Shown: in pieces, positions 30,740-64,000 of the stretch
Position numbering within the stretch: the stretch's first letter is position 1
How the letters are laid out: every line of letters starts with the position of its first letter
Origin: a virus
Reading direction: 5' to 3' (one strand)
Virus record (IMG/VR): IMGVR_UViG_3300046167_000884
Coordinates: 1 to 64,000 of that record
Length of the DNA: 64,000 nucleotides
Notes under the pieces: model-generated
Seen by the model: the letters and a program-made list of their open reading frames with translations, nothing else
What the model was told of the DNA's origin: nothing
The model's database searches: none
Position numbers and translations under genes: made by a program

Positions 30740-33700
30740 ATGGCCAATAAGTTAGAAAATATTTTTAATCCAAATGTTGATGAAATCTCACAAGGTTTTA
30801 CAATTAATGCTTGGCATGTTTCTCAATCAGTAGACGCTTTTACAGCTGCAGATGCATATGATATATCAATATCAGGTTCATTTAATAATACGGGTTCAGC
30901 ATCATTTTCGGGAAGTGTATTTACTCCAGATTTACCCGATACTTCAACTGATTTTGAAGTAGTTGTTGTTGATAATACAACAAAAGAAGTAAAGAAAACA
31001 AATTTATTAAATGCGGGTTCATCGGGAACAAGTGGTTCATCTGGTACATCAGGTTCAAGTGGCACAAGCGGTTCATCAGGAACTTCAGGTTCTTCAGGCA
31101 CAAGTGGTTCTTCAGGTATTAGTGGTTCTTCAGGTACTTCAGGTGAAGATGGAGATAAATATGTTACAACCTCAACAACCTGTAAAGATTTAGGAGTAGG
31201 TAATACTTGTATTACTGTAGGGGTAGGATTAGCTTATTCTACTGGTCAAGAAATGATAATGGCCAACAGTACTACAGCTTTTCAAACTGCGTTAGTTGAT
31301 AGTTATGACCCAGTTACAGGGATTTTATGTTATGGTGATATTATAACCCAAGTAGGAACTGGAAACTATTGCAATTGGGAAGTAAATCTTGCTGGAACCG
31401 TAGGAGGTTCATCAGGTACATCAGGCTCTTCAGGCACATCCGGTTTAAACGGTTCAAGTGGAACATCAGGCTCAAGTGGAGCAGATGGATCATCGGGCTC
31501 AAGTGGTTCATCAGGTACATCAGGTTCAAGCGGAACATCAGGTTCTAGTGGTGCCTCAGATAAATATGCTACAACATCAAACGACTTGTTTTACATTAGG
31601 AGGCAGTGGTTGTATATTTGTAGACACAGGTTTAGCGTATACAATTGCACAATCTATTATTATAGCATACGATGCTAATAATCATCAAGAATGTGAAGTA
31701 TTATCGTATGATGATGATACAGGAGAACTATGTTTTGGTTCACCTACTTCTACAACAGGTAGTGGTCAATATTGTAGTTGGAGTGTTAATTTAGATGGTG
31801 CAACAGGTGGAGATGGATCATCAGGTACAAGTGGTACATCAGGTACAAGTGGAACTTCAGGAACATCTGGTTCTTCGGGTACATCAGGTTCATCGGGTTC
31901 ATCCGGTTCTTCAGGAGCTAGTGGTTCATCAGGATCATCAGGTACAAGTGGTACTTCTGGTTCTAGTGGTGAAGATGGATCTTCAGGTTCATCCGGTACA
32001 TCAGGTTCTTCAGGTTCAAGTGGCTCATCAGGTACAAGTGGTTCTGCAGGAACCTCGGGTTCAAGTGGTACAAGTGGTACATCTGGTTCATCAGGTACCG
32101 CCGGTTCATCAGGCACATCAGGTTCTTCAGGAACAAGTGGTACTTCAGGTACTTCTGGATCCTCTGGCAATTCAGGAACTAGTGGTTCTTCAGGAACATC
32201 AGGGACATCAGGTTCAAGTGGTACATCAGGTACATCAGGGACATCAGGTTCAAGTGGTTCAAGTGGTACAAGTGGCTCATCAGGTTCATCAGGTACAAGT
32301 GGCTCATCAGGTACAAGTGGGGAAGGTGGATCCTCAGGCTCAAGTGGAACATCAGGTTCAAGTGGTGAATCTGGTACATCCGGCTCTTCAGGCACATCAG
32401 GTTCCTCAGGAACAAGTGGTACTTCAGGTTCTGCAGGAACCTCGGGTTCAAGTGGTACAAGTGGTACATCTGGCTCATCAGGATCAAGTGGTTCATCAGG
32501 TACTTCTGGTACATCGGGTTCAAGCGGAACTTCGGGTACAAGCGGTACATCAGGTACATCTGGTACTTCAGGTTCAAGTGGTTCATCAGGTACAAGTGGT
32601 CATCAGGTACATCAGGTTCAGGTCTCATCAGGTACATGCAGGTTCTTCAGGAACATCAGGTTCTTCAGGAACATGCTGGAACATCAGGAACTTCAGGTTC
32701 ATCAGGTACAAGTGGTACTTCAGGTTCAGTGGAACTTCTGGTTCATCTGGTTCATCAGGTACTTCAGGTCAGCGGTTCAGCTGGAACTTCAGGTACTTCA
32801 GGAACTCAGGTTCATCGGTACAAGCGGAACTTCAGGTACAGGGTACTTCAGGTACATCAGGTTCATCTGGTACATCAGGTTCTTCAGGTACTTCAGGTAC
32901 AAGTGGTACATCAGGAACATCAGGTTCTTCAGGAACTTCAGGTTCATCAGGTATAGACGGTACTTCAGGTTCGTCAGGCACTTCAGGTTCATCAGGTATT
33001 GATGGTACTTCAGGTTCGTCAGGCACTTCAGGTACAAGCGGTTCATCAGGTACATCAGGAACTTCAGGTTCTTCAGGTACGAGTGGATCTTCAGGAACAT
33101 CAGGTACATCAGGAACGTCTGGAACATCAGGTTCTTCAGGTACTTCAGGTTCATCAGGAACTTCTGGTTCATCAGGAACTAGTGGTTCATCAGGAACATC
33201 AGGTTCATCAGGTACTGCAGGAACTTCAGGAACATCAGGTTCTTCAGGTAACGACGGTACATCAGGAACTTCAGGTTCATCAGGTACAAGCGGTTCAGCG
33301 GGTACATCAGGAACAGATGGTACTTCTGGTATAGACGGTACTTCTGGTTCATCTGGTACTTCTGGTTCATCGGGTACAAGTGGCTCTTCAGGAACTTCTG
33401 GTTCTTCAGGAACTTCAGGAACATCTGGTTCATCAGGAACATCAGGTTCATCTGGTACTTCAGGTTCATCAGGTATTGATGGTACTTCAGGTTCGTCAGG
33501 AACTTCAGGTTCATCAGGTACAAGTGGTTCAGCTGGAACTTCAGGAACTTCAGGTTCATCAGGAACTTCAGGTTCATCAGGTTCTGCTGGTACATCAGGA
33601 ACTTCTGGTTCATCAGGTATTGATGGAACTTCTGGTTCATCTGGTACGAGCGGTTCATCAGGAACTTCAGGTTCTGCTGGTACGTCAGGTACAAGCGGAG

Positions 33701-36700
33701 TTTCAGGAACTTCAGGTTCATCAGGTACATCAGGCTCAGCTGGTACTTCAGGAACATCAGGTTCTTCAGGTACAAGCGGTTCATCAGGTAACGATGGAAC
33801 TTCAGGAACATCAGGTTCAGCTGGTACATCAGGAACATCAGGTTCTTCAGGTACAAGCGGATCTTCAGGAACTTCAGGTTCATCAGGAACATCAGGTTCT
33901 TCAGGTACTGCAGGAACGTCAGGAACTTCAGGTTCATCAGGTACATCAGGATCATCTGGTGTAAGCGGAACTTCAGGTTCATCAGGTACGAGCGGTTCAT
34001 CAGGAACATCAGGTTCATCAGGAACTTCAGGTTCTTCAGGTACTGCAGGAACATCAGGAACATCAGGTTCATCTGGTGTAAGTGGAACTTCAGGTTCTTC
34101 AGGAACTTCAGGTTCAGCTGGAACTTCAGGTTCTTCAGGAACTTCAGGTTCGGCTGGAACATCAGGTTCTTCAGGAACATCAGGTGTAAGTGGAACTTCA
34201 GGTTCTTCAGGAACTTCAGGTTCTTCTGGAACTTCAGGTTCATCAGGTGTAAGCGGAACTTCAGGTTCTGCTGGTACGTCAGGAACAAGCGGTTCATCTG
34301 GAACTTCAGGTTCATCAGGTTTCTCTGGTACTTCAGGTTCATCAGGTGTAAGTGGAACTTCAGGTTCAGCTGGTACATCAGGAACATCAGGTTCATCAGG
34401 TACAAGCGGATCTTCAGGTACTTCAGGTTCTTCTGGTACTTCTGGTTCATCAGGAACTTCTGGAACTTCTGGTTCTTCAGGTACTTCTGGTTCATCAGGA
34501 ACTTCAGGTTCATCAGGTGTAAGTGGAACTTCAGGTTCGGCTGGTACATCAGGAACTTCAGGTTCATCGGGTACAAGCGGTTCTTCAGGTAATGATGGAA
34601 CTTCAGGAACTTCTGGTTCTTCAGGAACTTCAGGTTCTGCTGGTACATCTGGTTCATCAGGTATCATCAGGTACATCAGGTACATCTGGTTCATCAGGAC
34701 AAGTCGGTTCATCAGGTACTTCAGGTTCATCAGGTACGATGGTACATCAGGAACTTCTGGTTCATCTGGTACATCAGGTTCATCAGGTAACGATGGAACA
34801 TCAGGATCATCTGGTTCATCAGGTACTTCAGGTTCATCAGGTACATCAGGTTCTAGTGGTACAAGTGGTACTTCAGGGGAACTCAGGAGACACATATGCC
34901 GATTGTAGTACTCAGGAATCTATCTGGTTACCTCTGGCAATGACGGTAGCTTCACGGAACTTAGCTCATCAGGAACTCAGGTTCTTCAGCGTATACTGCT
35001 GCACACTTCCGGTACATCTGGTATCTTCAGGAATGCCTCAGGTTCTTTCGAGTGTACGAGCGGACTCATCAGTAACTCAGGAACATCAGGTGCAATTCAG
35101 GATTACATCAGGTTCTTCAGGTACTTCAGGTTCTTCAGGTGGTTCGCGGAACTTCGTGGATAAATCTAGCTGGTGCTTCAGGAACATCAGGTTCATCTGG
35201 TACTAGCGGTTCAGCAGGTTCTTCAGGCACAAGTCAGGTTCTTCAGGTACAAGTGGCTCATCAGGTACTTCAGGTTCATCAGGTACTTCAGGTCATCAGG
35301 CTCTTCAGGAACATCAGGTTCAAGCGGTACTTCAGGTACTTCAGGTACATCAGGTACATGCGGTTCATCAGGTTTAGGAACATCAGGTTCTATCGGAACA
35401 TCAGGTTCAGTGGTACATCAGGTACATTCAGGTACAGTGGTTCTTCAGGTACTCAGGAACAAGTGGTTCAAGTGGAACATCAGGTTCATCAGGTACGAGC
35501 GGTTCTTCAGGTACTTCTGGTTCATCTGGTCAAGTGGTTCTTCAGGAACATCGGGTTCATCTGGTACTTCAGGTTCATCAGGTACAAGTGGAACAATGGC
35601 TCATCAGGTACTTCAGGTTCTTCAGGTACTTCAGGTTCATCTGGTTCAAGTGGTACATCTGGTTCATCAGGTACAAGTGGTACATCTGGTTCATCCGGTA
35701 CATCAGGTACATCAGGCTCATCAGGTACAAGCGGTTCTTCAGGCACATCAGGTACAAGCGGTTCTTCAGGTACATCAGGTACTAGTGGTTCAAGTGGAGA
35801 AGATGGATCCTCGGGCTCAAGTGGAACATCAGGTTCAAGTGGTACATCTGGTTCATCAGGTACATCAGGTACATCTGGAACTAGTGGTTCATCTGGTAAT
35901 TCAGGTACAAGCGGTTCTTCAGGGACTAGTGGTTCATCTGGTAATTCTGGAACATCCGGTTCATCAGGTACATCAGGTACATCAGGTTCTTCAGGAACTA
36001 GTGGTTCATCAGGCACATCAGGTTCTTCAGGAACTAGTGGTTCTTCAGGAACAAGTGGTAGTTCAGGTGCATCAGGTCCAATAGGTCCTTACGAATATTA
36101 TGCTCCCGGAGACGAAGATTCGGGTATTCAACCTGTAAGTGGTTCAAATACTGCTGCAGGTTGTTGGTCAACTATTGCTGGTGGTCAAAATAATTATGTT
36201 GGTCTTGGGGGTACATTATATCATTTTATAGGAGGTGGTTTTGATAACCAAACAGGAACTTGTGCTGCTGGTCAAGTAATTGTTGGTGGATATTGTAACT
36301 GTTCACAAGGTGGTACTTCTCCTAATAAAGCTGATTGGAACTTTATAGGAGCTGGTATTGAAAACTGTAATCTTGGAGGTGCAGCTGCTATTGTAGCTGG
36401 TAAAAATAATAAAATTTCAGGAGTAGGAATAGGTGGAACTAATACAGGTGCATCTGGTAGTTTTATTGGAGCTGGTGTTGGAAATGAAATTGAAGCAGGA
36501 TGTTGTAGTTTTATAGGAGCTGGTTCTAATAACTTTATAACAAGTAGTCATACTTCAATTGTAGGTGGTACCCTAAACACAGCTTCAGCAGATTGTAGTT
36601 TCATAGGAGGTGGACATAACAACCTAACAAAAATATGCACCTATTCAGATTAGTATGGTGGATTTATTTCCGAAGGAACAGGTTCATCAATTGTGGGTGG

Positions 36701-47890: not shown

Positions 47891-48436
47891 ATGATTAAAT
47901 TAATAGATCTATTAAATGAGATAGATATCCCTAAGAACAAATGGGTTACTATTCCTGCCTCAGAACTAAAAGACTATAGTGAAGAAATTTATAAGTTAAT
48001 TGATAATGCTTATGCACCAATTGGCGGTCATCCTAACTATAAATCCGCGGGTAATGTATCAGGTAGTGAATCTGATGCAGAATATGAAATAATTGATTTA
48101 GACGATGACCCTGAAATTGATGCAGTATCCGCTTCTAAACTTAAAGCCGCAGGTAAAAAATTTACAGCAACAGGACATGATGGGTCTAAACCAGCTAAAT
48201 CCAGTGTTGTAAATCATAAGGCAAATCAATTAAAATCTGGAGGATATTATGTTGAAGTATCAGGTGTAATAAAAGATATTTTTAAAGCTAAAGGTGTAGA
48301 AGCTATTAACGATGAAGAACTAGTACGTAAAGTACTTAAAGGAAAAGAAATTGAGTGGCTAGGTAATGGCGAATATAAAAGAACAATTGGTGGTAAATTA
48401 TTTACCAAAGCATTAATGGGAAAACCAACAGTATGA
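47891..48436 (+). CDS. Hypothetical protein with MIKLIDLLNE leader
   Basis: ORF track; short amphipathic leader ending in L-x-E. Confidence 0.7.
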   Translation: MIKLIDLLNEIDIPKNKWVTIPASELKDYSEEIYKLIDNAYAPIGGHPNYKSAGNVSGSESDAEYEIIDLDDDPEIDAVSASKLKAAGKKFTATGHDGSKPAKSSVVNHKANQLKSGGYYVEVSGVIKDIFKAKGVEAINDEELVRKVLKGKEIEWLGNGEYKRTIGGKLFTKALMGKPTV

Positions 48437-49230
48437 TAAGTTTAGTACAATTATTAAGAGAAGCACAAGGTAACCCAAAAGCGGTTATCTTAGCAGGAGC
48501 ACCTGGAGCAGGTAAAGGATATATTTTACGTGGTTTAGACTTAGGAGGTCTAAAAACAATGAATGTAGATGATATCTATGTTCCTTTACTAAAAAAAGCT
48601 AACGTTAGTTTAGATTTAAAAAACGCTACACCTGAAGAAAGAAGTGAGCAAGCCAAACAAATGGCCGCAGCTAATAAACAATTTAAAGGTGAATTAGAAC
48701 AAGTAATAGCAGGTAAAGAATCATTTATATTAGATGGTACAGCAGCTTCATTTAAAAAAACAGCAGAATTAAAATCAGAACTAGAAGAAGCAGGATATGA
48801 TACATTTATGCTTTATGTCTATACAGATTTAGAACGTTCGTTAAGTCAAAACCAAGATAGATACGTAAAATCAGGAGGTGAAGATAGAAGTTTAGCACCT
48901 GCAATTGTAATGCGTACTTGGAAAAGTGTAACAGATAATTTACCTAAATATGAAGAATTATTTGGTAATAATTTTGTAGCAGTAGCTAATACATTAGATG
49001 ATAGAATGCAAGATATAGATAAAATTATACAAAAATATCTTAAACCATTTACACCTCAAGGTACTAAACCTAAAACCCCAGCTCAGCAAAAGAAATCTGA
49101 TGAACGAAAGGCTAAGGACAAAGAAGAAATTCAAGCTATGTTAGATGATGATTTTATATATGATGTAATTGAATATACTATGTCTAAGGAAGAGGCACAA
49201 ATGAGATTAAAACAATTCTTATCTAAATGA
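48433..49230 (+). CDS. P-loop kinase (AAA_33/zeta-toxin/PNK-like) with MISLVQLLRE leader
   Basis: AVILAGAPGAGKGY Walker A, NVDD, ILDGT and lid Arg motif. Confidence 0.75.
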   Translation: MISLVQLLREAQGNPKAVILAGAPGAGKGYILRGLDLGGLKTMNVDDIYVPLLKKANVSLDLKNATPEERSEQAKQMAAANKQFKGELEQVIAGKESFILDGTAASFKKTAELKSELEEAGYDTFMLYVYTDLERSLSQNQDRYVKSGGEDRSLAPAIVMRTWKSVTDNLPKYEELFGNNFVAVANTLDDRMQDIDKIIQKYLKPFTPQGTKPKTPAQQKKSDERKAKDKEEIQAMLDDDFIYDVIEYTMSKEEAQMRLKQFLSK

Positions 49231-50909
49231 GTTTAGTAAACGAATTAATTAAAGGGTTATTACCTGAAGAAGAAAAAAAGAAGGTAGTGGCAGTATATGG
49301 TGGTGGTTTTAAACCACCCACATCTGGTCACTTTGAAGTTGTAAAACAAGCACTTAAAGAAAACCCCGAAATAGATGAATTTATTATCTTAATAGGTGGT
49401 AAACCAAGAAATGGTATTACACCTGATGAATCTATTTTAATTTGGGATATCTATAAAACATACTTACCATTTAAAGTTGAAGTAAAATACACATCAGTAC
49501 CTCCTATAAAAGGTATTTATAATTATGCCAAAGAACACCCAGATGAAGAAGTATTATTCATTATAGGTGCTAGAGAAGGTAATGAAGAAGATTTTAAAGA
49601 TATAGCATCTAGAACAACAACATTGGATAAATATCCAAATTTAAATTTACGTACCATTGTAACACAAGGTGGTGTTTCAGGTACAGCTGCTAGAAATGCT
49701 TCTAAAATATCATTAGATAAATTTAAACCCTTTGTTCCATCTGAATTATCAGATGAAGAAATAGAGCAAGTATATAATATAGTAGCAGATAAAATACAAG
49801 AAAATAACCCAGAGGATGGCAAGGCTGCTCCTTATGGTTCCGGATATAAAAAACTAAAAGAAAACGCATCATATTCTCAAAATATAGATGTAATGGAAAA
49901 AATAGCTCAATTAACCAATCATATGATTGATAAGGGTATGAATATTGAACCATTACCTACTATGGAATTTATAGACGGTGATTCAGAAAATGCTAAAGAC
50001 TTTTTTGGTAAAACAGCATATTACGATCCAAACAGAAAACATATAGTATTATACACTGAAGGTAGACACCCTAAAGATATAGTACGTTCGTATGCACATG
50101 AAATGATCCACCATATCCAAAATCTAGAGGGTAGATTAGGTGATATTTCAACTACAAATACACAAGAAGACGATAAACTAAATGATATTGAAGCGGAAGC
50201 TAACCTAAAAGGCACAATGACATTTAGAAATTGGACGGATAGTTTAAATGAAGCAATCGTAGGTGAAAAAATCGAATGTGATAATTGTGGTTGGAGCTGG
50301 AATATAGTAGACGGTGGAGATGATTTATTTATATGTCACAAATGTGGGCACGATAATACACCAATAAATGAAAAGAAAACTAAAGACCCGTTTGGTATAA
50401 ATGCATATGCAATGGAATTAGGAAGGTTACGTGAAGAAGAAACAGAATATAAAATATACTGCGATATGGATGGCGTAATAGCAGATTTTGAACGTGGTTA
50501 TGAAGAATTAACAGGTATAGATTTACAAGGTGAATTTAAACCTGAAGGAAAAGAGTTTTGGGATCCTATCTCTAAAGCAGGAGTTGGATTTTGGGCTGGT
50601 TTAAAATGGATGCCTGATGGGCAACAATTATGGGATTATATTAAACCCCATAAACCAAAATTATTATCTGCACCTTCACGTGAACAAACTTCTAGAATAG
50701 GAAAACACGTTTGGGTTAAACATAAAATACCTGGTACAAAATTAATATTAAGGTATGCTGATAAAAAGAAAGAATTAGCTTCACCAACATCAATATTAAT
50801 AGATGATAGAATGGTAAATATAAAAGACTGGGAATCCGCAGGAGGGATTGGTATATTACATACTAGTGCTGCTAATACTATTAGCCAATTAGAAAAATTA
50901 GGTTTATGA
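49227..50909 (+). CDS. Multidomain protein: HIGH-type nucleotidyltransferase + HExxH zincin-like domain + Zn ribbon + HAD (NT5C-like) nucleotidase
   Basis: GGFKPPTSGH; RSYAHEMIHH; CDNC..CHKC; IYCDMDGVIADF...ILIDDR. Confidence 0.8.
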   Translation: MSLVNELIKGLLPEEEKKKVVAVYGGGFKPPTSGHFEVVKQALKENPEIDEFIILIGGKPRNGITPDESILIWDIYKTYLPFKVEVKYTSVPPIKGIYNYAKEHPDEEVLFIIGAREGNEEDFKDIASRTTTLDKYPNLNLRTIVTQGGVSGTAARNASKISLDKFKPFVPSELSDEEIEQVYNIVADKIQENNPEDGKAAPYGSGYKKLKENASYSQNIDVMEKIAQLTNHMIDKGMNIEPLPTMEFIDGDSENAKDFFGKTAYYDPNRKHIVLYTEGRHPKDIVRSYAHEMIHHIQNLEGRLGDISTTNTQEDDKLNDIEAEANLKGTMTFRNWTDSLNEAIVGEKIECDNCGWSWNIVDGGDDLFICHKCGHDNTPINEKKTKDPFGINAYAMELGRLREEETEYKIYCDMDGVIADFERGYEELTGIDLQGEFKPEGKEFWDPISKAGVGFWAGLKWMPDGQQLWDYIKPHKPKLLSAPSREQTSRIGKHVWVKHKIPGTKLILRYADKKKELASPTSILIDDRMVNIKDWESAGGIGILHTSAANTISQLEKLGL

Positions 50910-51514: not shown

Positions 51515-52615
51515 ATGAAAGATAATTTTGACCTTTATTCTTGGAATAAAAATCGTTATTTAGAAAAAGAACATAAATCTAAGGATACTAAAGAAAAAGA
51601 TTTTGATTTACGTGAATGGAATAAGAAAAGATATTTAGGTGAACTAGATATTAATACTGCAGGAGGTGAAACTAATGTAGATAATATAGATGTAACCCAT
51701 GGTGGAGATGATCCTAAAATTGGTGCAGAATTAGAATCAGATGCCAATGTAGTAGGAGAAAATAAAGATTATTTAGAAAGCCTTGCCTTAAACCTCACAC
51801 AAGCACACCCAGATTTAGAATTTGAAGTTAGTAACTTTGATGATGTAAGAGTTTATGGTTCTCAAAGTGATTTAATGAAGTTTGGAAATAAAATGCATGG
51901 TAAAAAATTTGGAGAATATGAAGTATTTCATGTAGAAGATGATGATAGAGGAGAAATTGTTCGAATAGTTAAATCAGATAGCATTTTAAGAAATTTTGAA
52001 AATTTAAATGAAGCAAGTTATATGTACAAAGGATATAAAGATAAACACTTTGATATTTGCCCAGGAGCTGAAGCATTAAGAGATAGATTATTAGCTGGTG
52101 AATTTAAAGATAATAATTGGGCTACAGGAACTAATTTTGAAAAAGAAGTAGGTGAATGGCTTTACCAACATGACGTAATATTTGGTATTGAAAAAAATAT
52201 TATAAAAGATAAAGAAGGTGATGAAAATGATATAGCTAAAGCTAAAGAAGCTGAAGGTAGAGTTGTTAACTTATCTCGTGATTTAGGTATTCCGGCTTCT
52301 GAAATAAATGCTTATCTTCCTGCTCATATTAAAACCATTAAAGATATGGTTGAGTATAGTTCATTAACTGAAAGCATTAAAGAAACACTTCGTTTTATTA
52401 AAGAACACAATCCAGATTTTACTAACGAAGAAATTAAATCTGAATTAAAAGAACTTAAAGAATTAGGCAAGCAATTAAACGAAAAACTTTGTAAAAAAGG
52501 CGAAGCATATCGTAAACGTAGAATGGCTGCAGGTGAAAAATCATCAGCTTATTTATCTGGTCGTGCTGTTAAAGTATGTAAAGGTCAAATGAGTGGTAAA
52601 AAAAAGAAAAAATAA
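51515..52615 (+). CDS. Modular protein with a doubled leader (DNFDLYSWNKNRYLE / DFDLREWNKKRYLGE) and basic C-terminal module
   Basis: ORF track; internal LNE/LTE junctions. Confidence 0.7.
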   Translation: MKDNFDLYSWNKNRYLEKEHKSKDTKEKDFDLREWNKKRYLGELDINTAGGETNVDNIDVTHGGDDPKIGAELESDANVVGENKDYLESLALNLTQAHPDLEFEVSNFDDVRVYGSQSDLMKFGNKMHGKKFGEYEVFHVEDDDRGEIVRIVKSDSILRNFENLNEASYMYKGYKDKHFDICPGAEALRDRLLAGEFKDNNWATGTNFEKEVGEWLYQHDVIFGIEKNIIKDKEGDENDIAKAKEAEGRVVNLSRDLGIPASEINAYLPAHIKTIKDMVEYSSLTESIKETLRFIKEHNPDFTNEEIKSELKELKELGKQLNEKLCKKGEAYRKRRMAAGEKSSAYLSGRAVKVCKGQMSGKKKKK

Positions 52616-53310
52616 TGGGTACATTTGATTTAAAAAAATATATTTCTGATAATCCTTTGCTAAAGGAAGAAATTTTAACTGAAGTAAGTGATGCTGATAT
52701 TGTTAAAGCTTTAGCTAAAGTAGTAGACATGGAACCTAAAGATGTTGTAGCTAAAATAAAGGCAGATAAAGAGGAAGTAAATGAAATAGCAATTACAACC
52801 GCTATCACTATTGCAGGTCTTCTTCCAGCGGTTATGGAATTAGTAGGTGGTGCTTTTAATAAAGCTAAAAATTCTTTTAAATTAAATGATAAAGAAAAAA
52901 CAGAATATTTAGCATTACAACAATTCTACAAGGAAGCAAAAGATAAAGATGAAAAGAAAAGACTTAAAAAAGAAATGGAACCCTATGAATCTAAAATAGG
53001 AAACTGGTTTAAAGATGCAGGGCATTCTTTACACAAAGCTTATACTTGGCCTATTAGAAAAATGTTAAACTTGGCTGGAACCTTTTCTTCTAAAGATTCT
53101 CCTTTAAAGGATAAAGAAAAAGTAGAAAAAATAGCTAATGTTATTTATGCTACGGCAATGATAGGGATAGCAGGGTATGGAGTTGCTTCTCACCTAGGAC
53201 ATTTAAAAGGCGTATCAGATGTAGCTATTACTATTGCAGATTCTATTAAAGGAGGTAAAAGTATAAAAGATGCTGCCTTAGGTGGTTTAGAATTACTTGG
53301 TTTATTATAA
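52615..53310 (+). CDS. Leader-bearing protein (MGTFDLKKYISDNPLLKEE) with hydrophobic helices
   Basis: IAITTAITIAGLLPAVMELVGG and VIYATAMIGIAGYGVA segments. Confidence 0.7.
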   Translation: MGTFDLKKYISDNPLLKEEILTEVSDADIVKALAKVVDMEPKDVVAKIKADKEEVNEIAITTAITIAGLLPAVMELVGGAFNKAKNSFKLNDKEKTEYLALQQFYKEAKDKDEKKRLKKEMEPYESKIGNWFKDAGHSLHKAYTWPIRKMLNLAGTFSSKDSPLKDKEKVEKIANVIYATAMIGIAGYGVASHLGHLKGVSDVAITIADSIKGGKSIKDAALGGLELLGLL

Positions 53311-53585: not shown

Positions 53586-54344
53586 ATGAGATTATTATAT
53601 CTATTATTTATACTACTTTTCACAAGTTGTGGAGTTGGATTTCAATACACAACACTAAATCATGCTGGTCACATTGACGGCATTTATTCATCTAATGATT
53701 ATAAAATAGATACATTAAATGAATTTCAGGTAAGAAATAAACTAAGAACAGATTTTAATTTTAGATACGATATTGCACAATATGCTTTATCCCAACCAGC
53801 TTCATTTGATTGGAATAATAGGTTACTAGGTAACAGATATAATTGGAATAGACCTTACTGGGGCTATAGTTACTATTGGAATAGAACTCAAATGTGGAAT
53901 GATTGGGCTTGGGGATACCCTTATTCGAATTGGGGATATAATAACTGGCATAGTTGGAATAGGCCTTATTGGGGTTGGAATAATTCTTGGTGGAATAATT
54001 GGGGTTGGAGACAACAAATGAATGATTATGCTTGGATATATAGGAATAGGTCTAATACTGTTCGTATAAATGGTTATAGAACTTTTAATAGAACATCTAC
54101 TCGTACTGTTGTAAATAACACAAATAGAAGAACAACCCCTTCAGTTAATGTTAATAATAACAATAGAACTATTAAAGTAAACAAACCAAGGGTTAATTAT
54201 AACTCTAAACCAAGAATTAATACACCTAGAGTAAGAGTTAATACTCCTCCTAGGCAACCTTCAACAATAAGAACAACTCCACGTATTTCTACTCGATCTA
54301 CTAACAATACTACTGTAAGAAGCAATTCTAGGAGAAAAAACTAA
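53586..54344 (+). CDS. Lipoprotein with W/N/Y/G-rich low-complexity core and R/T/N/P-rich tail
   Basis: MRLLYLLFILLFTS-C lipobox; composition directly visible. Confidence 0.7.
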   Translation: MRLLYLLFILLFTSCGVGFQYTTLNHAGHIDGIYSSNDYKIDTLNEFQVRNKLRTDFNFRYDIAQYALSQPASFDWNNRLLGNRYNWNRPYWGYSYYWNRTQMWNDWAWGYPYSNWGYNNWHSWNRPYWGWNNSWWNNWGWRQQMNDYAWIYRNRSNTVRINGYRTFNRTSTRTVVNNTNRRTTPSVNVNNNNRTIKVNKPRVNYNSKPRINTPRVRVNTPPRQPSTIRTTPRISTRSTNNTTVRSNSRRKN

Positions 54345-54369: not shown

Positions 54370-55308
54370 ATGGACAACTTTAATTATCAAGCTTATATCA
54401 AAAGTGGTAGAATCCACGGAGAAAAAGCGATTTTAACCGAATCAGAACAAGTTTCTGAAAAAAAATACAAGCAAGGATATGACGATAGAGAAGATGAATC
54501 TCTAGGCGATCGTACTGGTGCTGAAAAAGGCAAGAAACAATCTATGAAAGACCGTAGAGATGATTCTTATGGAAAATTTGGCAAACGTGATGCTGAAAAA
54601 AAGGGCAAAAATAAAGTCAACAAAGAAAGCCTATCAGAAACTATTGCTGAAGCTAAAGCTAAAATTGACGAGGGTTCTTACCCATTTGATCAATGCTTGG
54701 CTGATAATGAAGGTAAATATGGTAAAAAAGGTGCTGCCAAAGTATGTGGTGCTATTAAAGCCCAATACGGTGAAGGTCAAGTAAATGAAATGGATGAAGT
54801 TTCATGGAATGATAAAAACAACCCAACCAGAAGTGATTCAGTAGGCGAAAGAGATCCTAAAAAAGTAGGCCAATCTACAGCAGCATACTCAGTAAATGAA
54901 GACGCTCGTACTGATGCTGAACAAGAAGGATATAAAGATGGATTTGAAGATGCTAAAGATGATATTGAAGGAGTATTAAAGAAAATGAAAGTATCTGAAC
55001 TTAAAGATAAAATTAAAACTGAAATTGTAAGTGCACTATCAGAAGCTGAAGAAGAAGTAGACGTTGATGTAGATGTTGAAGACGAAGTTGAAGTAGAAGC
55101 AGGTGCTGATGATATTGAAATCGAAAGACCAGGAGTTAAAACAACAGTAGATGTTGGACTATCTCCAGAAGAGGAAATTGTTCAAGATTCTTTAAAAGCT
55201 GCAATGGATGCTGCAGAAGCTTTAGGTAGTCAAAAATTAGCAGATCAAATTGGTAATACAATTACTTTCTTTACAAGACAATTTGTAGTAGGTGATAATA
55301 CTGATTAA
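54370..55308 (+). CDS. Highly charged modular protein with MDNFNYQAYIKSGRIHGE leader (possible prohead core/internal protein)
   Basis: Leader variant; LTE/LSE/VNE junctions; acidic DVDVDVEDEVEVE tract. Confidence 0.65.
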   Translation: MDNFNYQAYIKSGRIHGEKAILTESEQVSEKKYKQGYDDREDESLGDRTGAEKGKKQSMKDRRDDSYGKFGKRDAEKKGKNKVNKESLSETIAEAKAKIDEGSYPFDQCLADNEGKYGKKGAAKVCGAIKAQYGEGQVNEMDEVSWNDKNNPTRSDSVGERDPKKVGQSTAAYSVNEDARTDAEQEGYKDGFEDAKDDIEGVLKKMKVSELKDKIKTEIVSALSEAEEEVDVDVDVEDEVEVEAGADDIEIERPGVKTTVDVGLSPEEEIVQDSLKAAMDAAEALGSQKLADQIGNTITFFTRQFVVGDNTD

Positions 55309-58424: not shown

Positions 58425-59735
58425 ATGAGTATATTCGATAAATTTTTTACAAAATTCGCTTACAAATTCGACAAAGGATATCCTGACATGAATAATGATC
58501 AGGATGTTTTGTTGTTGGAGTCACTTATTAGTGAAGTATTAGGTGAAAGATATAGTTTAGAAGAAGCTAATATGGTTGGATCCGCTACAAATTATCCTTC
58601 TGTTACTGGGACTTGGGAAAAATATATTGAAAACCCACTATCTAAACATGAAGACGGAAAAACAACTTATACTGCAATAAAAACATCTCCAGTATGGATT
58701 AAAACTCCATCAAATAATATTGAAAAAACAGATGTAATAGTAAATGTAAATGATACGTTTACTATTAGTTCTAGGTCTACTGATGATTTAATAAAAAAAG
58801 GAAGTTCTTATTATGCTCCTATTAATTATAAAGGAAAGGAATACTATTTCCCCTTTAATGCTATACTAAAACCTACAGGCAAAAATGTCCAAAAATTTGA
58901 ACCTAATTTAGATTCTAAAAATGACCCATCAGTTTATCATGCCTTCACCCCAGGCCATCCACAAGAAGCAAATATTGCAATGTTATTTATTGAAAAAACA
59001 TCTCCTGATTGGGAATTTGAATATAAAGGAAAATCATTAAAAGTAATATATTTAGGTGATCCTAATGTTAAAAGTACTGGTTATCCTAAAAATGATTTAC
59101 AAATTAATACTGAACCTGCCCCTGAAGGTTTAGATTCTTCAATGAGGATTAGTTTAAAAGCAGATAATGCTACTTACGTAGAGAATTGGATGACTTCTAC
59201 TAGAGCAGAACAGATATTAGGTGATACCAAAGTAAAAGAAATTGTTTTAGGAGCATATAATGCTTTATTAAAATCAACACCACCTAGATCTGGTAAAGGT
59301 TTATTTAAAGGAACCCTTAAATCATATCAAATTTGTATGTTTATTAAAGACAAACAACCACCGTATGGATCAGAAGCACCTTCAATACTATCAGAACCCC
59401 TATCTAAAGATGAGGCATATGAAGCTTATACAGGGGATAAAAAGTTTGGGGATACTGATGGGTCAGCTAATTATTTTTATAAAGGAGGAAAACCAAAAAC
59501 AACAACAGAATTTCTGGGAGATTTAAAACCATTCAAAGATAATATGGATAATTTATCAGATTTATGGGTTTCTTTAAGGGGATCTAATGAATCAGGTAAA
59601 GGAAGAAGTAGAGTATTTTATTGGGAAGGAAAAGATGATGATCCAAATGGAAAATGGATTATAAATCCATTATGGGCAGAAATAGCTGGGATAACCAAAT
59701 CAGAAGATAAAGAAGGTAATATAAAATATAGTTAA
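58425..59735 (+). CDS. Leader-bearing protein with a possible PD-(D/E)XK restriction-endonuclease-like domain
   Basis: Leader ending in LLLE...SLEE; QEANIA...PKNDLQI...RISLKAD fits E...D...(x)SLK catalytic spacing. Confidence 0.45.
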   Translation: MSIFDKFFTKFAYKFDKGYPDMNNDQDVLLLESLISEVLGERYSLEEANMVGSATNYPSVTGTWEKYIENPLSKHEDGKTTYTAIKTSPVWIKTPSNNIEKTDVIVNVNDTFTISSRSTDDLIKKGSSYYAPINYKGKEYYFPFNAILKPTGKNVQKFEPNLDSKNDPSVYHAFTPGHPQEANIAMLFIEKTSPDWEFEYKGKSLKVIYLGDPNVKSTGYPKNDLQINTEPAPEGLDSSMRISLKADNATYVENWMTSTRAEQILGDTKVKEIVLGAYNALLKSTPPRSGKGLFKGTLKSYQICMFIKDKQPPYGSEAPSILSEPLSKDEAYEAYTGDKKFGDTDGSANYFYKGGKPKTTTEFLGDLKPFKDNMDNLSDLWVSLRGSNESGKGRSRVFYWEGKDDDPNGKWIINPLWAEIAGITKSEDKEGNIKYS

Positions 59736-59744
59736 TATTTATAA
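59735..59744 (+). promoter_or_regulatory. ATATTTATAA motif
   Basis: 9 nt upstream of ATG 59754. Confidence 0.55.
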
Positions 59745-59753
59745 TAAAACAAT

Positions 59754-61212: not shown

Positions 61213-61720
61213 TTTACCTATTTCAGGATTACCAGCTTCATCTACATTACAAGGAGATGAATTATTTGCCGATGTACAAGGTGGTGTAACTAAATATACT
61301 ACTTTAGATGATGTAACAAGCTATGTAAGTGGCTCAATTGAAGTCTATAATCAAACTAACCCTAATAACTCATATATAGTTCCCGTAACTTTAACAGTTG
61401 AAAAAGGAGATACAATTAATTTATCAGATACTGTATATCAAAATGCTTCTATGATTGAATTATCATGGAGTGGAGAGACTAACCCAGATGTAACTCTAAA
61501 TCTTCCAGATGCAACAAATGCTAATAATACTTATAGAACAATAAGATTTATTTCTGATTCAACCTTTATCAATTCTAGTCATCATGTTGATTTAACTCCA
61601 ACAGGAGGTCAAACATTAGATGGAAGTACAAACCCTTATGTAATAAATAAAGCATATGAAGGTATTATGGTATGGTCAGATGGAGCAGAATGGTTTATAA
61701 TACAGAAAAAAGCTGGATAA
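61205..61720 (+). CDS. Probable virion decoration/fibre-like protein
   Basis: MPNLPISGLPASSTL...D start and C-terminal beta-rich ...LDG...WSDGAEWFII, resembling fibre/decoration domains. Confidence 0.5.
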   Translation: MPNLPISGLPASSTLQGDELFADVQGGVTKYTTLDDVTSYVSGSIEVYNQTNPNNSYIVPVTLTVEKGDTINLSDTVYQNASMIELSWSGETNPDVTLNLPDATNANNTYRTIRFISDSTFINSSHHVDLTPTGGQTLDGSTNPYVINKAYEGIMVWSDGAEWFIIQKKAG

Positions 61721-61968
61721 TGAACCCATACAAAAATAAAGGTAACATAAGAACGTTTTCGAAAGATGTAAATAAACTAGAACTAGTTTGGCATCAAGAC
61801 GCTGAAGATAGAGATATCGAAGTATTAGAAGGCAAAGGATGGGAATTACAAATGGATAATGAATTACCCTTTGAATTAGTAAAGGGAGATCGTATATTTA
61901 TAACAGAAGGTAGAATACACCGAATATTAAAAGGCATAACAGATTTAAAAATAAAAATAAATGGATAA
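61720..61968 (+). CDS. Small cupin-like protein
   Basis: Start at the TAATG overlap (MNPYKNKG...); WHQDAEDR...GDRIFITEGRIHRILKG. Confidence 0.65.
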   Translation: MNPYKNKGNIRTFSKDVNKLELVWHQDAEDRDIEVLEGKGWELQMDNELPFELVKGDRIFITEGRIHRILKGITDLKIKING

Positions 61969-62254
61969 CTTTAATTTAAGAAAATATTTAGCTGAAGGAA
62001 AATTACATGAAGAACAAGTAATGGGATATGCTGTACTTATAAATGGTAAATTCTATAATAATAAAGTATACAAATCAGAATCAGTAGCTAATGGACAGTT
62101 AACTACATTACTAGGTGATGTAAAAAGTGAATTAGGTCTTGAAGGTGGAAGAAAAGATCAATATTATTTTGGTACTAAAAAAGGAGATAAAGATTTAGAA
62201 CAACGTTTAAAAGATTTAGAACAAGCTAAAGTAGTAGCTGTAACCTATAAATAA
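61961..62254 (+). CDS. Leader-array gene 1 (MDNFNLRKYLAEGKLHEE + unique body)
   Basis: Shared 18-aa leader. Confidence 0.8.
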   Translation: MDNFNLRKYLAEGKLHEEQVMGYAVLINGKFYNNKVYKSESVANGQLTTLLGDVKSELGLEGGRKDQYYFGTKKGDKDLEQRLKDLEQAKVVAVTYK

Positions 62255-62260
62255 AAATAA

Positions 62261-62902
62261 ATGGATAACTTCGATTTAAAAAAATATTTAGCTGAAGGTC
62301 GCTTATTTAAAGAAGAAATAGACTACCCATCTATTAAAGATGAAATGAAAAAAATATATGATATAGATGTAGATCTAGATACCATTAAAGATTTTGTTAC
62401 ATCATATAATGATAGTGAGGGTATGGATGTATTTGATACAACGGAACGAGAAGATTTTTATTTATATTTAAAAGATTTAGCTGAAGGCCTCTTATTTGAA
62501 GAAGAACAATGGTTTGATCCCTCTAGCCCTTCACACGGTAAAGGATATAAAGTATTAGGCGATAAACCACAAGAAGGTGCTTTTTATGTAAGTGGATATG
62601 ATTTTGATAATGATAAAAGCTTTGAATATTATGTACTTGATCCTAATTATAATAAATACCTTACTGCTACCCAAGAATTATTAGGTCTTGCTGATGAACA
62701 GGGACACGAGTATGAAAGTATAGAACAGTATTATGATACAGTTAAAGCTTTTCAAAATGATTTAAGATCTTATGCTAAAGGAGGTAAGTTCGAAGGTGAT
62801 GAGGTACCTAATTGGCTTATGCAAGATCTTGCTATGAGTTTTGGAACTGATTATGACCAATTTTATAGTGATGATGAAGACGAAGACGAAGACGATTATT
62901 AA
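62261..62902 (+). CDS. Leader-array gene 2 (MDNFDLKKYLAEGRLFKEE), with a second internal leader copy
   Basis: Internal LYLKDLAEGLLFEEE at 62462-62506. Confidence 0.8.
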   Translation: MDNFDLKKYLAEGRLFKEEIDYPSIKDEMKKIYDIDVDLDTIKDFVTSYNDSEGMDVFDTTEREDFYLYLKDLAEGLLFEEEQWFDPSSPSHGKGYKVLGDKPQEGAFYVSGYDFDNDKSFEYYVLDPNYNKYLTATQELLGLADEQGHEYESIEQYYDTVKAFQNDLRSYAKGGKFEGDEVPNWLMQDLAMSFGTDYDQFYSDDEDEDEDDY

Positions 62903-62920
62903 AAATAAAATTAAAATAAA

Positions 62921-63472
62921 ATGGATAATTTCGATTTAAAAAAATATTTAGCTGAAGGAAGACTATTTGAAGAAGATTTTAAAAATCCAATTCTAGATAA
63001 ATATTTAGAACTAAAAAAATCAGTAGATAACAATACAGCTTTTGAGTATGAACTATCAGATTTTATTAATGGTTTAGATAATACTGAACGTGAGGGATTA
63101 GAAAGCGATTTAGGATTAGAAAGAGATGAGTTATATGAAGGTCGCTTATTAAAAGAAGAGATAATGGTTGACACCACTATTATGTTTGGTGGTAATGACT
63201 ATATTAAAGATGTACTTACATCACCTGATGATTTTGGCTTTGATGAAGAAGATGCTGAATGGATTAAAAGTAATATTTTAACTGCTCCTAAAATGGTATC
63301 TATTGAAGATTACATGGCTTTAGAGGATAAGTGGGTAGAACAAGCAGATTTAGATGTTGGAACAGGAGCAGATCGTGAGTCTGTTCTAGATGCTATTGAT
63401 GTTCATATTAAACAAGGATTAATAACTCCTGAAGAAGGAGAAGAAGCTAAAAAAATAGCACTAAAATTTTAA
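62921..63472 (+). CDS. Leader-array gene 3 (MDNFDLKKYLAEGRLFEE), with an internal half-leader
   Basis: Internal LYEGRLLKEE at 63131-63160. Confidence 0.8.
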   Translation: MDNFDLKKYLAEGRLFEEDFKNPILDKYLELKKSVDNNTAFEYELSDFINGLDNTEREGLESDLGLERDELYEGRLLKEEIMVDTTIMFGGNDYIKDVLTSPDDFGFDEEDAEWIKSNILTAPKMVSIEDYMALEDKWVEQADLDVGTGADRESVLDAIDVHIKQGLITPEEGEEAKKIALKF

Positions 63473-63477
63473 AATAA

Positions 63478-63789
63478 ATGGATAACTTTGATCTAAAAAA
63501 ATATTTAGCTGAAGGTAAATTATATGAACAAAAATCTCCTAAATTTAAAATAGGTGATTTTGTTCAACCTAAAAGCCGAGATAAATATGTAGGCCAAATT
63601 GAAGATGTTTATATTAATAAACCTGAAAATTTAGAAATAAAAGATGGTGAATATGTTTATTCAGTTGATAAATTAAATCACAGAGGAAAAGATGCAATGT
63701 CATTTGATTTTAAAGAATCAGATTTAGAATCAATATCTGACCCAACTGAATATATAAAAAGTTTAACACCATATAAAAGAAGAAACTAA
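63478..63789 (+). CDS. Leader-array gene 4 (MDNFDLKKYLAEGKLYEQ + SH3/KOW-like body)
   Basis: PKFKIGDFVQPK...GQIEDV...YVYSV...FKESDLE. Confidence 0.8.
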   Translation: MDNFDLKKYLAEGKLYEQKSPKFKIGDFVQPKSRDKYVGQIEDVYINKPENLEIKDGEYVYSVDKLNHRGKDAMSFDFKESDLESISDPTEYIKSLTPYKRRN

Positions 63790-63790
63790 A

Positions 63791-64000
63791 ATGGATAATT
63801 TCGATTTAAAAAAATATTTAGCGGAAGGCCGCTTATTAAAAGAAGAATTAACTTTTTCTTTTGACGAATATAGCTATGAAATTGATGATGATGCCTATCA
63901 AGCAGAAGTAGAGGCAGGTATTAAAACTCAATTACCAAACATCTCAGATAAAGTTTTACAAGCAATCATAGATAGTTCTGTAGAATACTATTATGATCAA
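63791..64000 (+). CDS. Leader-array gene 5 (MDNFDLKKYLAEGRLLKEE...), truncated by the window end
   Basis: Hand-translated; open to base 64000. Confidence 0.8.
   Translation, partial: MDNFDLKKYLAEGRLLKEELTFSFDEYSYEIDDDAYQAEVEAGIKTQLPNISDKVLQAIIDSSVEYYYDQ

What the first reader, a model, noticed from the sequence alone, without database searches (positions are those of the whole stretch)
61961..64000. Tandem gene array sharing one N-terminal leader (MDNFDLKKYLAEG-[RK]-L-x-[EK]-E) on unrelated bodies: candidate capsid-targeting cargo cassette array
Seen: at least 5 consecutive genes begin with a near-identical 18-aa peptide, conserved at DNA level over ~38-55 nt, then diverge completely. The array runs off the window. 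Degenerate versions start genes at 51515, 52615 and 54370. Established: T4 internal proteins IPII/IPIII carry a 10-aa capsid-targeting sequence (MKTYQEFIAE) removed by prohead protease gp21 after Glu in an (I/L)-x-E context, and IPI* is injected to block GmrSD restriction. Inference: YLAE parallels FIAE, so this looks like an expanded addressing tag that loads a variable library of small effectors into the head for injection.
Basis: partly seen in the sequence, partly recalled or inferred. Interest (0 to 1): 0.9.

Follow-up and report, generated by a model that had tools for sequence, protein, structure and literature searches.

The report
Capsid-targeting-like leader on phage gene array
Six neighbouring genes of a T4-like phage of aquatic Bacteroidota begin with the same 18-residue peptide, which most likely acts as an address-and-cut tag that loads many unrelated small proteins into the virus head, and the same tag marks more than a thousand different protein families in environmental phages.

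Summary
Six consecutive + strand genes (61961 to genome 64979; five start inside the window) begin with one 18-residue leader and then diverge completely. Two upstream genes (52615, 54370) carry diverged copies.

The window is the first 64 kb of a 120-kb 'Far-T4' phage. This phage encodes a T4 gp20-type portal, a gp21-type Peptidase_S77 prohead protease and a gp23-type capsid protein.

The leader is constrained as a peptide, not as DNA. It occurs in at least 118 IMG/VR contigs of the same lineage and in 1373 protein clusters (50% identity).

It is bipartite. The N-terminal half occurs once per protein. The C-terminal half (L-A-E-G-[KR]-L-x-[EK]-E) also recurs as the in-frame linker between shuffled modules, and it holds two T4-type L-x-E cleavage motifs.

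In related phages, leader genes lie between the protease and scaffold genes. In some orthologues the leader replaces a T4-like 10-residue propeptide.

Best reading (about 0.6): a capsid-targeting and processing tag analogous to the T4 CTS, with a far larger and mostly acidic cargo repertoire. Packaging, cleavage and injection are all untested.

It is a new variant of a known kind. Other first-stage notes of this scan flagged the same stretch in overlapping windows.

The parts
61961..62254 (+). Array gene 1 (97 aa). Leader = first 18 codons, 61961-62014; single basic body (pI 8.7).
   Evidence: (HMM E 1.9e-13)
62261..62902 (+). Array gene 2 (213 aa): leader plus module A, half-leader linker, then module B.
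   Evidence: module A and module B occur separately behind their own leaders in other contigs (for example L031, L111).
62477..62506 (+). Internal half-leader linker (aa 73-82) joining the two modules of gene 2.
62921..63472 (+). Array gene 3 (183 aa): leader plus module C, half-leader linker, then module D.
   Evidence: AlphaFold2 gives pLDDT below 50 for residues 1-20 and 69-80 and about 70 for the two modules.
63131..63160 (+). Internal half-leader linker (aa 71-80) of gene 3.
63478..63789 (+). Array gene 4 (103 aa). The same body is the second module of fused proteins P0027 and L008.
63791..64000 (+). Array gene 5 (193 aa; ends at genome 64372). Its body is the second module of P0092. Gene 6 lies at genome 64458-64979, followed by a terminator hairpin at 65060-65083.
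61894..61903 (+). Copy of the late-type promoter-like motif, 67 nt before gene 1. It lies inside the 3' end of ORF 61672-61968, where it also encodes I-F-I, so its function is uncertain.
59735..59749 (+). Intergenic late-type promoter-like motif heading the unit 59754 ... array ... terminator.
52615..53310 (+). Gene with a diverged leader (231 aa, with hydrophobic segments).
   Evidence: E 2.3e-7
54370..55308 (+). Conserved core gene of the lineage with a diverged leader (312 aa). It has its own late-type motif at 54344.
   Evidence: (E 5.5e-7)
47891..49230 (+). Two genes (47891-48436; 48433-49230, a Zeta-toxin-type P-loop kinase) that start with a T4-like 10-residue N-peptide ending L-L-x-E. 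Their orthologues in other contigs carry the long leader instead.

Best explanation
The 18-residue leader is a bipartite prohead address-and-processing tag, the functional counterpart of the T4 capsid targeting sequence (CTS).

Proposed mechanism:
- The N-terminal half (M-D-N-F-D-L-[KR]-K-Y) docks the protein to the scaffolding core while the prohead assembles.
- The C-terminal half (L-A-E-G-[KR]-L-x-[EK]-E) offers one or two L-x-E sites to the phage's gp21-type (Peptidase_S77) prohead protease.
- The protease removes the tag and also separates modules joined by the same half-leader in fused proteins.
- The freed, mostly acidic, small proteins stay in the head and may enter the host with the DNA.
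- The conserved leader DNA doubles as the junction at which cassettes are exchanged between co-infecting relatives.

Shown here: the anatomy of the leader and linker, peptide-level selection, the protease gene, the gene positions, the modular exchange and the size of the cargo set.

Inferred: late expression, docking, cleavage, retention and injection.
For: 1. T4-type head machinery in the same contig: portal PF07230 (5.7e-67), Peptidase_S77 PF03420 (4.5e-29) and Gp23 PF07068 (1e-75). S77 was found in 22 of 37 leader-bearing contigs of 30 kb or more. All of these but one are 20-85% fragments, and the single complete 166-kb genome has it.
2. T4 gp21 cuts after Glu in L/I-X-E. T4 propeptides of 10-19 residues target internal proteins to the core, with targeting in the N-part and processing in the C-part (PMC9026906). 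The leader has the same logic and ends in L-A-E and L-x-E. Conservation collapses exactly after Glu17/18.
3. Presumptive protease substrates of this lineage keep T4-like sites: the protease N-end L-L-I-E|T is identical to T4 gp21; the scaffold has L-L-K-E|A; the capsid protein has Q-L-V-[VT]-E at the position aligned to the T4 gp23 cut.
4. Peptide-level selection: residue 14 (K/R) uses six codons and Leu15 uses TTA/CTA/CTT/TTG/CTC. These positions were not constrained by my search pattern.
5. The half-leader recurs in frame inside proteins: 132 sites observed against 5.4 expected (24-fold). Module homology starts exactly after its last Glu, whether a module is free-standing or fused.
6. In L040, L058/L080, L072, L047 and L018/L071, and in phage immuto (gp069), leader genes sit between the protease and scaffold genes. 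In L063 a full leader lies inside the conserved core protein next to the protease.
7. Orthologues 53-79% identical carry either the leader or a T4 gp24/Alt-like 10-residue N-peptide, and both end L-L-x-E at the same junction.
8. A motif found 18-29 nt before the portal, tail-tube and adaptor genes, and absent from the replication module, heads the unit that contains the array. It also directly precedes some leader genes inserted elsewhere, for example L031 between the PolA and SSB genes. A terminator closes the array.
9. AlphaFold2 models the leader and linker as low-confidence flexible segments between folded modules.
Against: - No direct evidence exists: no virion proteome or N-terminal data for any phage carrying the leader.
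- Co-occurrence with S77 is confounded by lineage: 110 of 118 loci are relatives of this phage.
- L-x-E is a short motif and easy to find by chance.
- The cargo is mostly acidic (median pI 4.3; 87% below 5.5), unlike the T4 internal proteins IPI-III, which I recall as basic.
- Some leader-tagged bodies look like cytoplasmic enzymes (a P-loop kinase).
- Some leader genes lie in replication modules (immuto gp003).
- The motif copy 67 nt before the array lies in coding sequence and may be conserved for the protein it encodes.
- The leader shows no sequence homology to the T4 CTS beyond an aromatic-[LI]-A-E ending.
- The AlphaFold2 model is weak (mean pLDDT 62).
Confidence: 0.6

Rival explanations
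1. The leader and linker are protease sites of a polyprotein-like expression system, but they do not target anything to the capsid. The modules are released in the cytoplasm, or the tagged proteins are auxiliary core or scaffold components that are degraded and expelled before DNA packaging. Nothing is delivered to the next host.
For: Half-leaders sit at module junctions. The bodies are acidic like scaffold proteins: the scaffold has pI 4.2 and the bodies a median of 4.3. Some leader genes lie between the protease and scaffold genes.
Against: T4-family S77 proteases act inside proheads (PMC9026906). Hypervariability and cassette exchange between near-identical genomes are not expected of structural filler. 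The N-terminal half of the leader is conserved as strongly as the cleavable half, which implies a function beyond cleavage.
Confidence: 0.15
2. The leader is a docking peptide for a common partner other than the prohead core, such as a host or phage hub protein, chaperone or clamp. It brings many different proteins to one place without cleavage. The residues N-x-x-L-x-x-Y-L loosely resemble a PIP/clamp-binding box.
For: Strong peptide-level conservation on unrelated bodies. Some leader genes lie in replication modules.
Against: This does not explain why only the C-terminal half recurs as an inter-module linker. It does not explain the swap with T4-like propeptides that end L-L-x-E, or the position between the protease and scaffold genes. 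The PIP resemblance is from memory and imperfect, and no T4-type clamp gene was looked for.
Confidence: 0.15
3. The conserved stretch is mainly a DNA- or RNA-level device: a recombination site for cassette shuffling or an optimal translation-start region for a Bacteroidota host. The peptide is a passenger.
For: Conservation starts about 10 nt before the ATG in an A-rich stretch. Homology breakpoints between contigs are enriched five-fold at the leader edges: 12.5% against 2.4%.
Against: Synonymous codon diversity is combined with conserved residues. Internal copies without a start codon keep the peptide. The diverged immuto version keeps the residue pattern but not the DNA. The recombination role is compatible with the main explanation and is included in it.
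Confidence: 0.05

Closest known systems
T4 capsid targeting sequence (CTS) on internal proteins IPI, IPII, IPIII and Alt, removed by prohead protease gp21 (Mullaney and Black 1996, as reviewed in PMC9026906 and PMC3012670)
   Same: A short N-terminal peptide shared by otherwise unrelated proteins. It ends in aromatic-[LI]-A-E (T4 IPII/IPIII; the leader). A gp21-family protease and a gp22-like scaffold are encoded in the same genome. The cargo set is variable between relatives. The tag is split into a targeting part and a processing part.
   Different: No sequence homology. The leader is 18 residues against 10 in T4 and has a second L-x-E site. Tandem arrays reach six genes. The half-leader is reused as a linker in multi-module proteins. 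The cargo is mostly acidic. There are at least 1373 cargo clusters. The hosts are aquatic Bacteroidota. Nothing is experimentally shown.
Polymorphic internal-protein loci of T-even phages (Repoila et al. 1994, cited in PMC3012670; the paper itself is not held)
   Same: A hyperplastic locus where different relatives carry different genes that share only the targeting leader. It is interpreted as an arms race with host restriction.
   Different: The locus here is a syntenic hot spot upstream of the terminase gene, with further sites between the protease and scaffold genes. The scale and the modular fusion are far larger. I could not read the original paper to compare details.
Propeptide-bearing inner-body and ejection proteins of phiKZ, 201phi2-1 and SPN3US, cut by gp21-like proteases after Glu (PMC9026906, PMC5694885)
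   Same: Many head-internal proteins processed after Glu by a diverged gp21 homologue, with redundant cleavage sites in the propeptides.
   Different: As far as I recall, those propeptides are not one near-identical shared leader, and the genes are paralogue families rather than exchangeable cassettes.
Encapsulin cargo-loading peptides, and the P1 Dar system for head packaging of anti-restriction proteins
   Same: A short tag or adaptor directs diverse cargo into an HK97-fold shell. P1 delivers its cargo with the DNA.
   Different: As I recall, encapsulin tags are usually C-terminal and are not cleaved, and P1 uses adaptor proteins rather than a common leader. The resemblance is one of principle only.

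Membership tests
T4-type CTS / internal-protein system | One short N-terminal peptide shared by otherwise unrelated proteins | tested here: met
T4-type CTS / internal-protein system | The peptide ends at a gp21-type cleavage motif (L/I-X-E) | tested here: met
   L-A-E at residues 10-12 and L-x-E ending at 17 or 18. Conservation and module homology stop there. The motif definition is from PMC9026906.
T4-type CTS / internal-protein system | A gp21-family prohead protease and a scaffolding core are encoded by the same phage | tested here: met
   PF03420 4.5e-29 at genome 75338-75946, with a scaffold-like gene at 76125-77282
T4-type CTS / internal-protein system | Sequence homology of the tag to the T4 CTS | tested here: not met
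   Only the last four residues are alike. The lengths differ.
T4-type CTS / internal-protein system | Tagged proteins are incorporated into proheads and the tag is removed | not testable with these tools
   No proteome of any leader-bearing phage was found.
T4-type CTS / internal-protein system | Mature proteins are ejected into the host with the DNA | not testable with these tools
   none
T4-type CTS / internal-protein system | Expression together with head genes | tested here: inconclusive
   The promoter-like motif is shared with the portal, tail-tube and adaptor genes. Its 'late' assignment is inferred, and the copy nearest the array is inside a coding region.
Viral polyprotein with protease-site linkers | A conserved junction motif between independently occurring modules | tested here: met
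   132 internal sites against 5.4 expected. The same modules occur both free and fused.
Viral polyprotein with protease-site linkers | Demonstrated cleavage at the junctions | not testable with these tools
   none

The most novel reading that the evidence does not exclude
A widespread lineage of aquatic Bacteroidota T4-like phages uses one universal, bipartite leader as a plug-and-play loading and processing platform. Any module placed behind the leader or half-leader is packed into the head, cut free by the prohead protease and delivered with the DNA. This would create an exchangeable arsenal of more than a thousand mostly acidic proteins, possibly DNA-mimic or other anti-defence factors, that act before any phage gene is transcribed.
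Probability: 0.3. Interest if true: 0.85.

Novelty: new variant of a known kind. Interest (0 to 1): 0.72.

Why it matters
If the leader is a capsid-loading tag, it defines by sequence alone a very large catalogue of proteins that phages carry into cells: 1373 clusters at 50% identity. Pre-made, co-injected proteins are prime candidates for first-minute counter-defence, and very few are known outside T4, P1 and the phiKZ-like phages.

The leader would extend the CTS principle from T-even coliphages to uncultured marine and freshwater phages of Bacteroidota. It would show the tag reused as a polyprotein linker. It would also give a simple handle for packaging foreign proteins into such phages.

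The hypothesis can be tested directly with one cultured phage, for example the Flavobacterium phage immuto, which carries a diverged version of the leader.

Tried and rejected
- Megablast and tblastn of the array against 50,697 phage records found nothing. Only the bare leader peptide found the immuto phages, at E of about 2.
- Rfam and tRNA scans of the window were empty.
- Pfam and PHROG scans of the six bodies and of ten representative bodies from other contigs gave almost nothing: DUF5872, a Zeta_toxin-type kinase and phrog_7595.
- The ESM Atlas gave only unnamed clusters below 0.9.
- The AlphaFold2 model of gene 3 is weak (pLDDT 62), and Foldseek against the PDB gave no match at E of 0.001 or better. 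The folds of the cargo therefore remain unknown.
- I considered that the leader derives from the capsid protein's N-terminal K-W...L-L-E-G segment, which is shared with T4 gp23. The leader HMM does not score that segment, so I dropped the idea.
- A clamp-binding (PIP-like) reading was considered and ranked low.
- The count of short N-terminal hydrophobic-hydrophobic-x-E peptides is only weakly enriched in the 47-79 kb block: 5 of 39 genes against 2 of 98, p = 0.02. I give it little weight.
- Repoila et al. 1994 could not be read.
- No paper contains the leader sequence.
Full report
**What is there**

The window is the first 64 kb of a single 120,008-bp contig. It has 31.8% G+C, and about 137 of 146 long ORFs lie on the + strand. 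There are no tRNA or Rfam hits in the window.

Six consecutive + strand genes start with the same peptide: 61961, 62261, 62921, 63478, 63791 and 64458. The fifth gene runs over the window edge and the sixth lies just beyond it. The gaps between the first five genes are 1-18 nt. An 85-nt gap precedes the sixth gene. A 10-bp-stem terminator hairpin follows it at 65060-65083, and no + strand terminator-like site was found between genome 60001 and that hairpin.

DNA similarity begins about 10 nt before the ATG, in an A-rich stretch. It lasts 39-55 nt and then vanishes.

**What kind of genome**

The downstream genes include:
- a large terminase;
- a T4 gp20-type portal (PF07230, 5.7e-67);
- a Peptidase_S77 prohead protease, the T4 gp21 family (PF03420, 4.5e-29);
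- a gp23-type major capsid protein (PF07068, 1e-75);
- tail sheath, tail tube and baseplate genes.

The closest cultured relatives by capsid protein are Flavobacterium phage vB_FspM_immuto (55.8% identity), Microcystis phage Mel-JY01 and Rhodothermus phage RM378. This is therefore a 'Far-T4' myovirus, most likely of a Bacteroidota host. The host assignment is an inference.

**The leader is widespread and constrained as a peptide**

These hold 209 leader ORFs, 1-6 per locus, in tandem runs of up to four.

From 193 unique sequences the consensus is M-D-N-F-D-L-[KR]-K-Y-L-A-E-G-[KR]-L-[LFY]-[EK]-E. Information content collapses at residues 19-20.

Residues 14 and 15 were not part of my search pattern, yet they are still 93-96% conserved. 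They use six codons for K/R and five for Leu. Selection therefore acts on the peptide.

A 30-column leader profile searched against 1.84 billion cluster representatives (50% identity) found 1373 proteins at E of 0.001 or better and 82 at 1e-10 or better. By a loose pattern for the first six or so residues, 147 of the best 150 begin with the leader-like start. Because the representatives are clustered at 50% identity, this number is roughly the number of different bodies. No paper in the library contains the sequence.

**Lineage and position**

110 of the 118 loci share other genes with this contig.

Most leader genes lie at one syntenic hot spot. It sits between homologues of 61672 (a small cupin-like protein) and 65270 (a dehydrogenase-like protein), just upstream of terminase, portal, core proteins, protease, scaffold and capsid. 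This is exactly the position seen in the window.

Secondary sites are:
- next to 47409/47891;
- between the PolA and SSB genes;
- between the protease and the scaffold genes, the most telling site. It is seen in L040, L058/L080, L072, L047 and L018/L071.

Phage immuto shows the same pattern. Two genes directly upstream of its terminase, one small gene between its protease and scaffold genes, and two more genes start with a diverged, longer version. That version still ends in L-x-E.

In L063 a complete leader lies in frame inside the conserved core protein that precedes the protease. In L018 a leader-like segment lies near that protein's C-end.

Peptidase_S77 was found in 22 of 37 leader-bearing contigs of 30 kb or more. 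All but one of these contigs are 20-85% fragments, and the single complete 166-kb genome has it. This co-occurrence is confounded by common descent and carries little independent weight.

**The leader has two halves**

Many hits contain two to four leader matches. Inspection shows chains of modules joined by L-[AS]-E-G-[KR]-L-x-[KE]-[EN], which is the second half of the leader. The first half is present only at the N-terminus.

Internal E-G-[KR]-[LI] sites number 132, against 5.4 in composition-matched shuffles (maximum 12).

The window's own genes 2 and 3 are such two-module proteins, with linkers at 62477-62506 and 63131-63160.

The same modules occur free-standing behind a full leader in some phages and as second modules behind a half-leader in others. 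The bodies of genes 4, 5 and 6 are examples: they recur in P0027, P0092 and P0073. In every case the homology starts right after the last Glu of the tag.

AlphaFold2 on gene 3 (weak model, mean pLDDT 62) gives pLDDT below 50 for residues 1-20 and 69-80, and about 70 for the two helical modules between them.

**Link to T4 processing**

According to the review PMC9026906:
- gp21 cuts after Glu in L/I-X-E;
- internal proteins carry 10-19-residue propeptides (CTS) that bind the core;
- residues 4 and 7 of the IPIII CTS serve targeting, and residues 8 and 10 serve processing;

PMC3012670 describes T-even internal proteins as a highly diverse set of defence proteins that share only the CTS.

T4's own N-termini, read from the record, end F-I-A-E (IPII, IPIII), L-L-R-E (gp24), L-F-D-E (Alt), L-L-I-E (gp21) and L-I-A-E (gp22).

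In this lineage:
- the protease starts with the same L-L-I-E|T;
- the scaffold has L-L-K-E|A;
- two small core proteins start with 8-residue peptides ending L-K-E;
- the capsid protein has Q-L-V-[VT]-E at the position aligned with the T4 gp23 cut.

The leader ends Y-L-A-E and then L-x-E. It therefore fits the inferred specificity twice.

**Interchange with short propeptides**

Own genes 47891 and 48433 (the latter a Zeta-toxin-type P-loop kinase) begin with a 10-residue peptide of the T4 gp24/Alt type. Their orthologues in L025, L028 and L053, and in L098, are 53-79% identical but carry the long leader instead. In both forms the homologous body starts after L-L-x-E.

Some homologues of 59754 likewise gain a 10-residue peptide ending L-I-K-E. 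This is the best computational hint that the leader and a T4-like propeptide do the same job.

**Expression**

The motif ATATTTATAA-[TC]-AAAA lies 18-29 nt before the portal, head-tail adaptor, tail tube and tail-spike-like genes. It also precedes 51515, 54370, 59754 and 67439. None lies upstream of a gene in the replication block at 100-113 kb. I read it as a late-type promoter, which is an inference.

One copy heads the unit that runs from 59754 through the array to the terminator. Another lies 67 nt before gene 1. That second copy sits in coding sequence, where it spells I-F-I in a conserved protein segment, so its conservation in 35 relatives may have nothing to do with transcription.

Sixteen leader-like ORFs at other sites have the motif 20-29 nt upstream. 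Several of these belong to the diverged 54370 family. Canonical examples include two genes inserted between PolA and SSB in L031.

**Cassette exchange**

L062 and L074 are 99.3% identical up to the end of one leader. L062 then has about 177 nt where L074 has 6, and identity resumes at 91%.

Across all loci, the ends of long high-identity matches fall within -15 to +75 nt of a leader start 12.5% of the time, against 2.4% for random positions (maximum 3.5% in 200 trials). There are peaks at both edges of the leader. The leader is therefore also the seam at which cargo genes are swapped.

**Weighing**

The capsid-tag reading explains all of the following:
- the two-part anatomy;
- the linkers;
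- the position next to the protease and scaffold genes;
- the swap with T4-like propeptides;
- the shared promoter-like motif;
- the hypervariability.

Against it:
- there is no direct evidence;
- L-x-E is short;
- the cargo is strongly acidic (median pI 4.3), unlike the basic T4 IPs (from memory), although acidic internal peptides are known in T4 heads (also from memory);
- some tagged proteins look like ordinary enzymes.

I put the tag-and-cut mechanism at about 0.6. The further step, delivery into the host as effectors, I put at about 0.3. The rivals are a cytoplasmic polyprotein or expendable core filler, another docking partner, and a purely nucleic-acid device. They are listed separately with their tests.

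**Novelty**

The principle, a CTS plus a polymorphic internal-protein repertoire, is established for T-even phages. New here are:
- a non-homologous, longer, bipartite tag;
- its reuse as a polyprotein linker;
- tandem arrays at syntenic hot spots;
- a cargo universe of over a thousand clusters;
- its occurrence in uncultured phages of aquatic Bacteroidota.

I class it as a new variant of a known kind. Other first-stage notes of this scan flagged the same stretch in overlapping windows.

Noticed in passing
window 47891-49230: Two genes, one a Zeta-toxin-type P-loop kinase, start with a 10-residue N-peptide like those of T4 gp24 and Alt, ending L-L-x-E. They may be head-targeted enzymes.
   Followed up: partly
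window 49227-50909 and genome 66882-67412: A 560-aa fusion has an NMNAT-like nucleotidyltransferase N-domain and an NT5C-like C-end. A NadR-like AAA_28 kinase lies further on. Together they may form a phage NAD salvage or reconstitution set. Immuto gp088 is annotated as NadR/NMNAT.
   Followed up: no
genome 64379-64444 (379 nt beyond the window end): A 21-codon ORF with nine Cys lies between array genes 5 and 6. The 59754 protein also begins with a C-x-C-x-C-x-x-C N-end that is conserved in more than 15 related contigs.
   Followed up: partly
genome 65060-65083: A strong intrinsic-terminator-like hairpin (10-bp stem, 6 G-C pairs) lies directly after the sixth array gene.
   Followed up: partly
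window 4651, 7664, 10183, 13368, 26929, 30721, 38725, 42579, 44639, 51491, 54344, 59735 and downstream: A recurrent motif, ATATTTATAA-[TC]-AAAA, lies 18-29 nt before structural genes and never upstream of a gene in the replication block. It is a candidate late promoter of this phage lineage.
   Followed up: partly
window 53586-54344: A protein with a lipoprotein-type signal peptide and Trp/Asn/Arg-rich repeats, followed by a basic Arg/Thr/Asn-rich tail.
   Followed up: no
window 31795-36653: A G+C-rich island (47% against 31%) encodes long ORFs that look like collagen-type Gly-x-y repeats, probably fibre proteins.
   Followed up: no
genome 74080-75333 and homologues (L112, L082, L040): The conserved core protein upstream of the protease has an internal F-x-x-F-L-A-E segment with the same spacing as the T4 CTS ending. 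In L063 it holds a full leader.
   Followed up: partly
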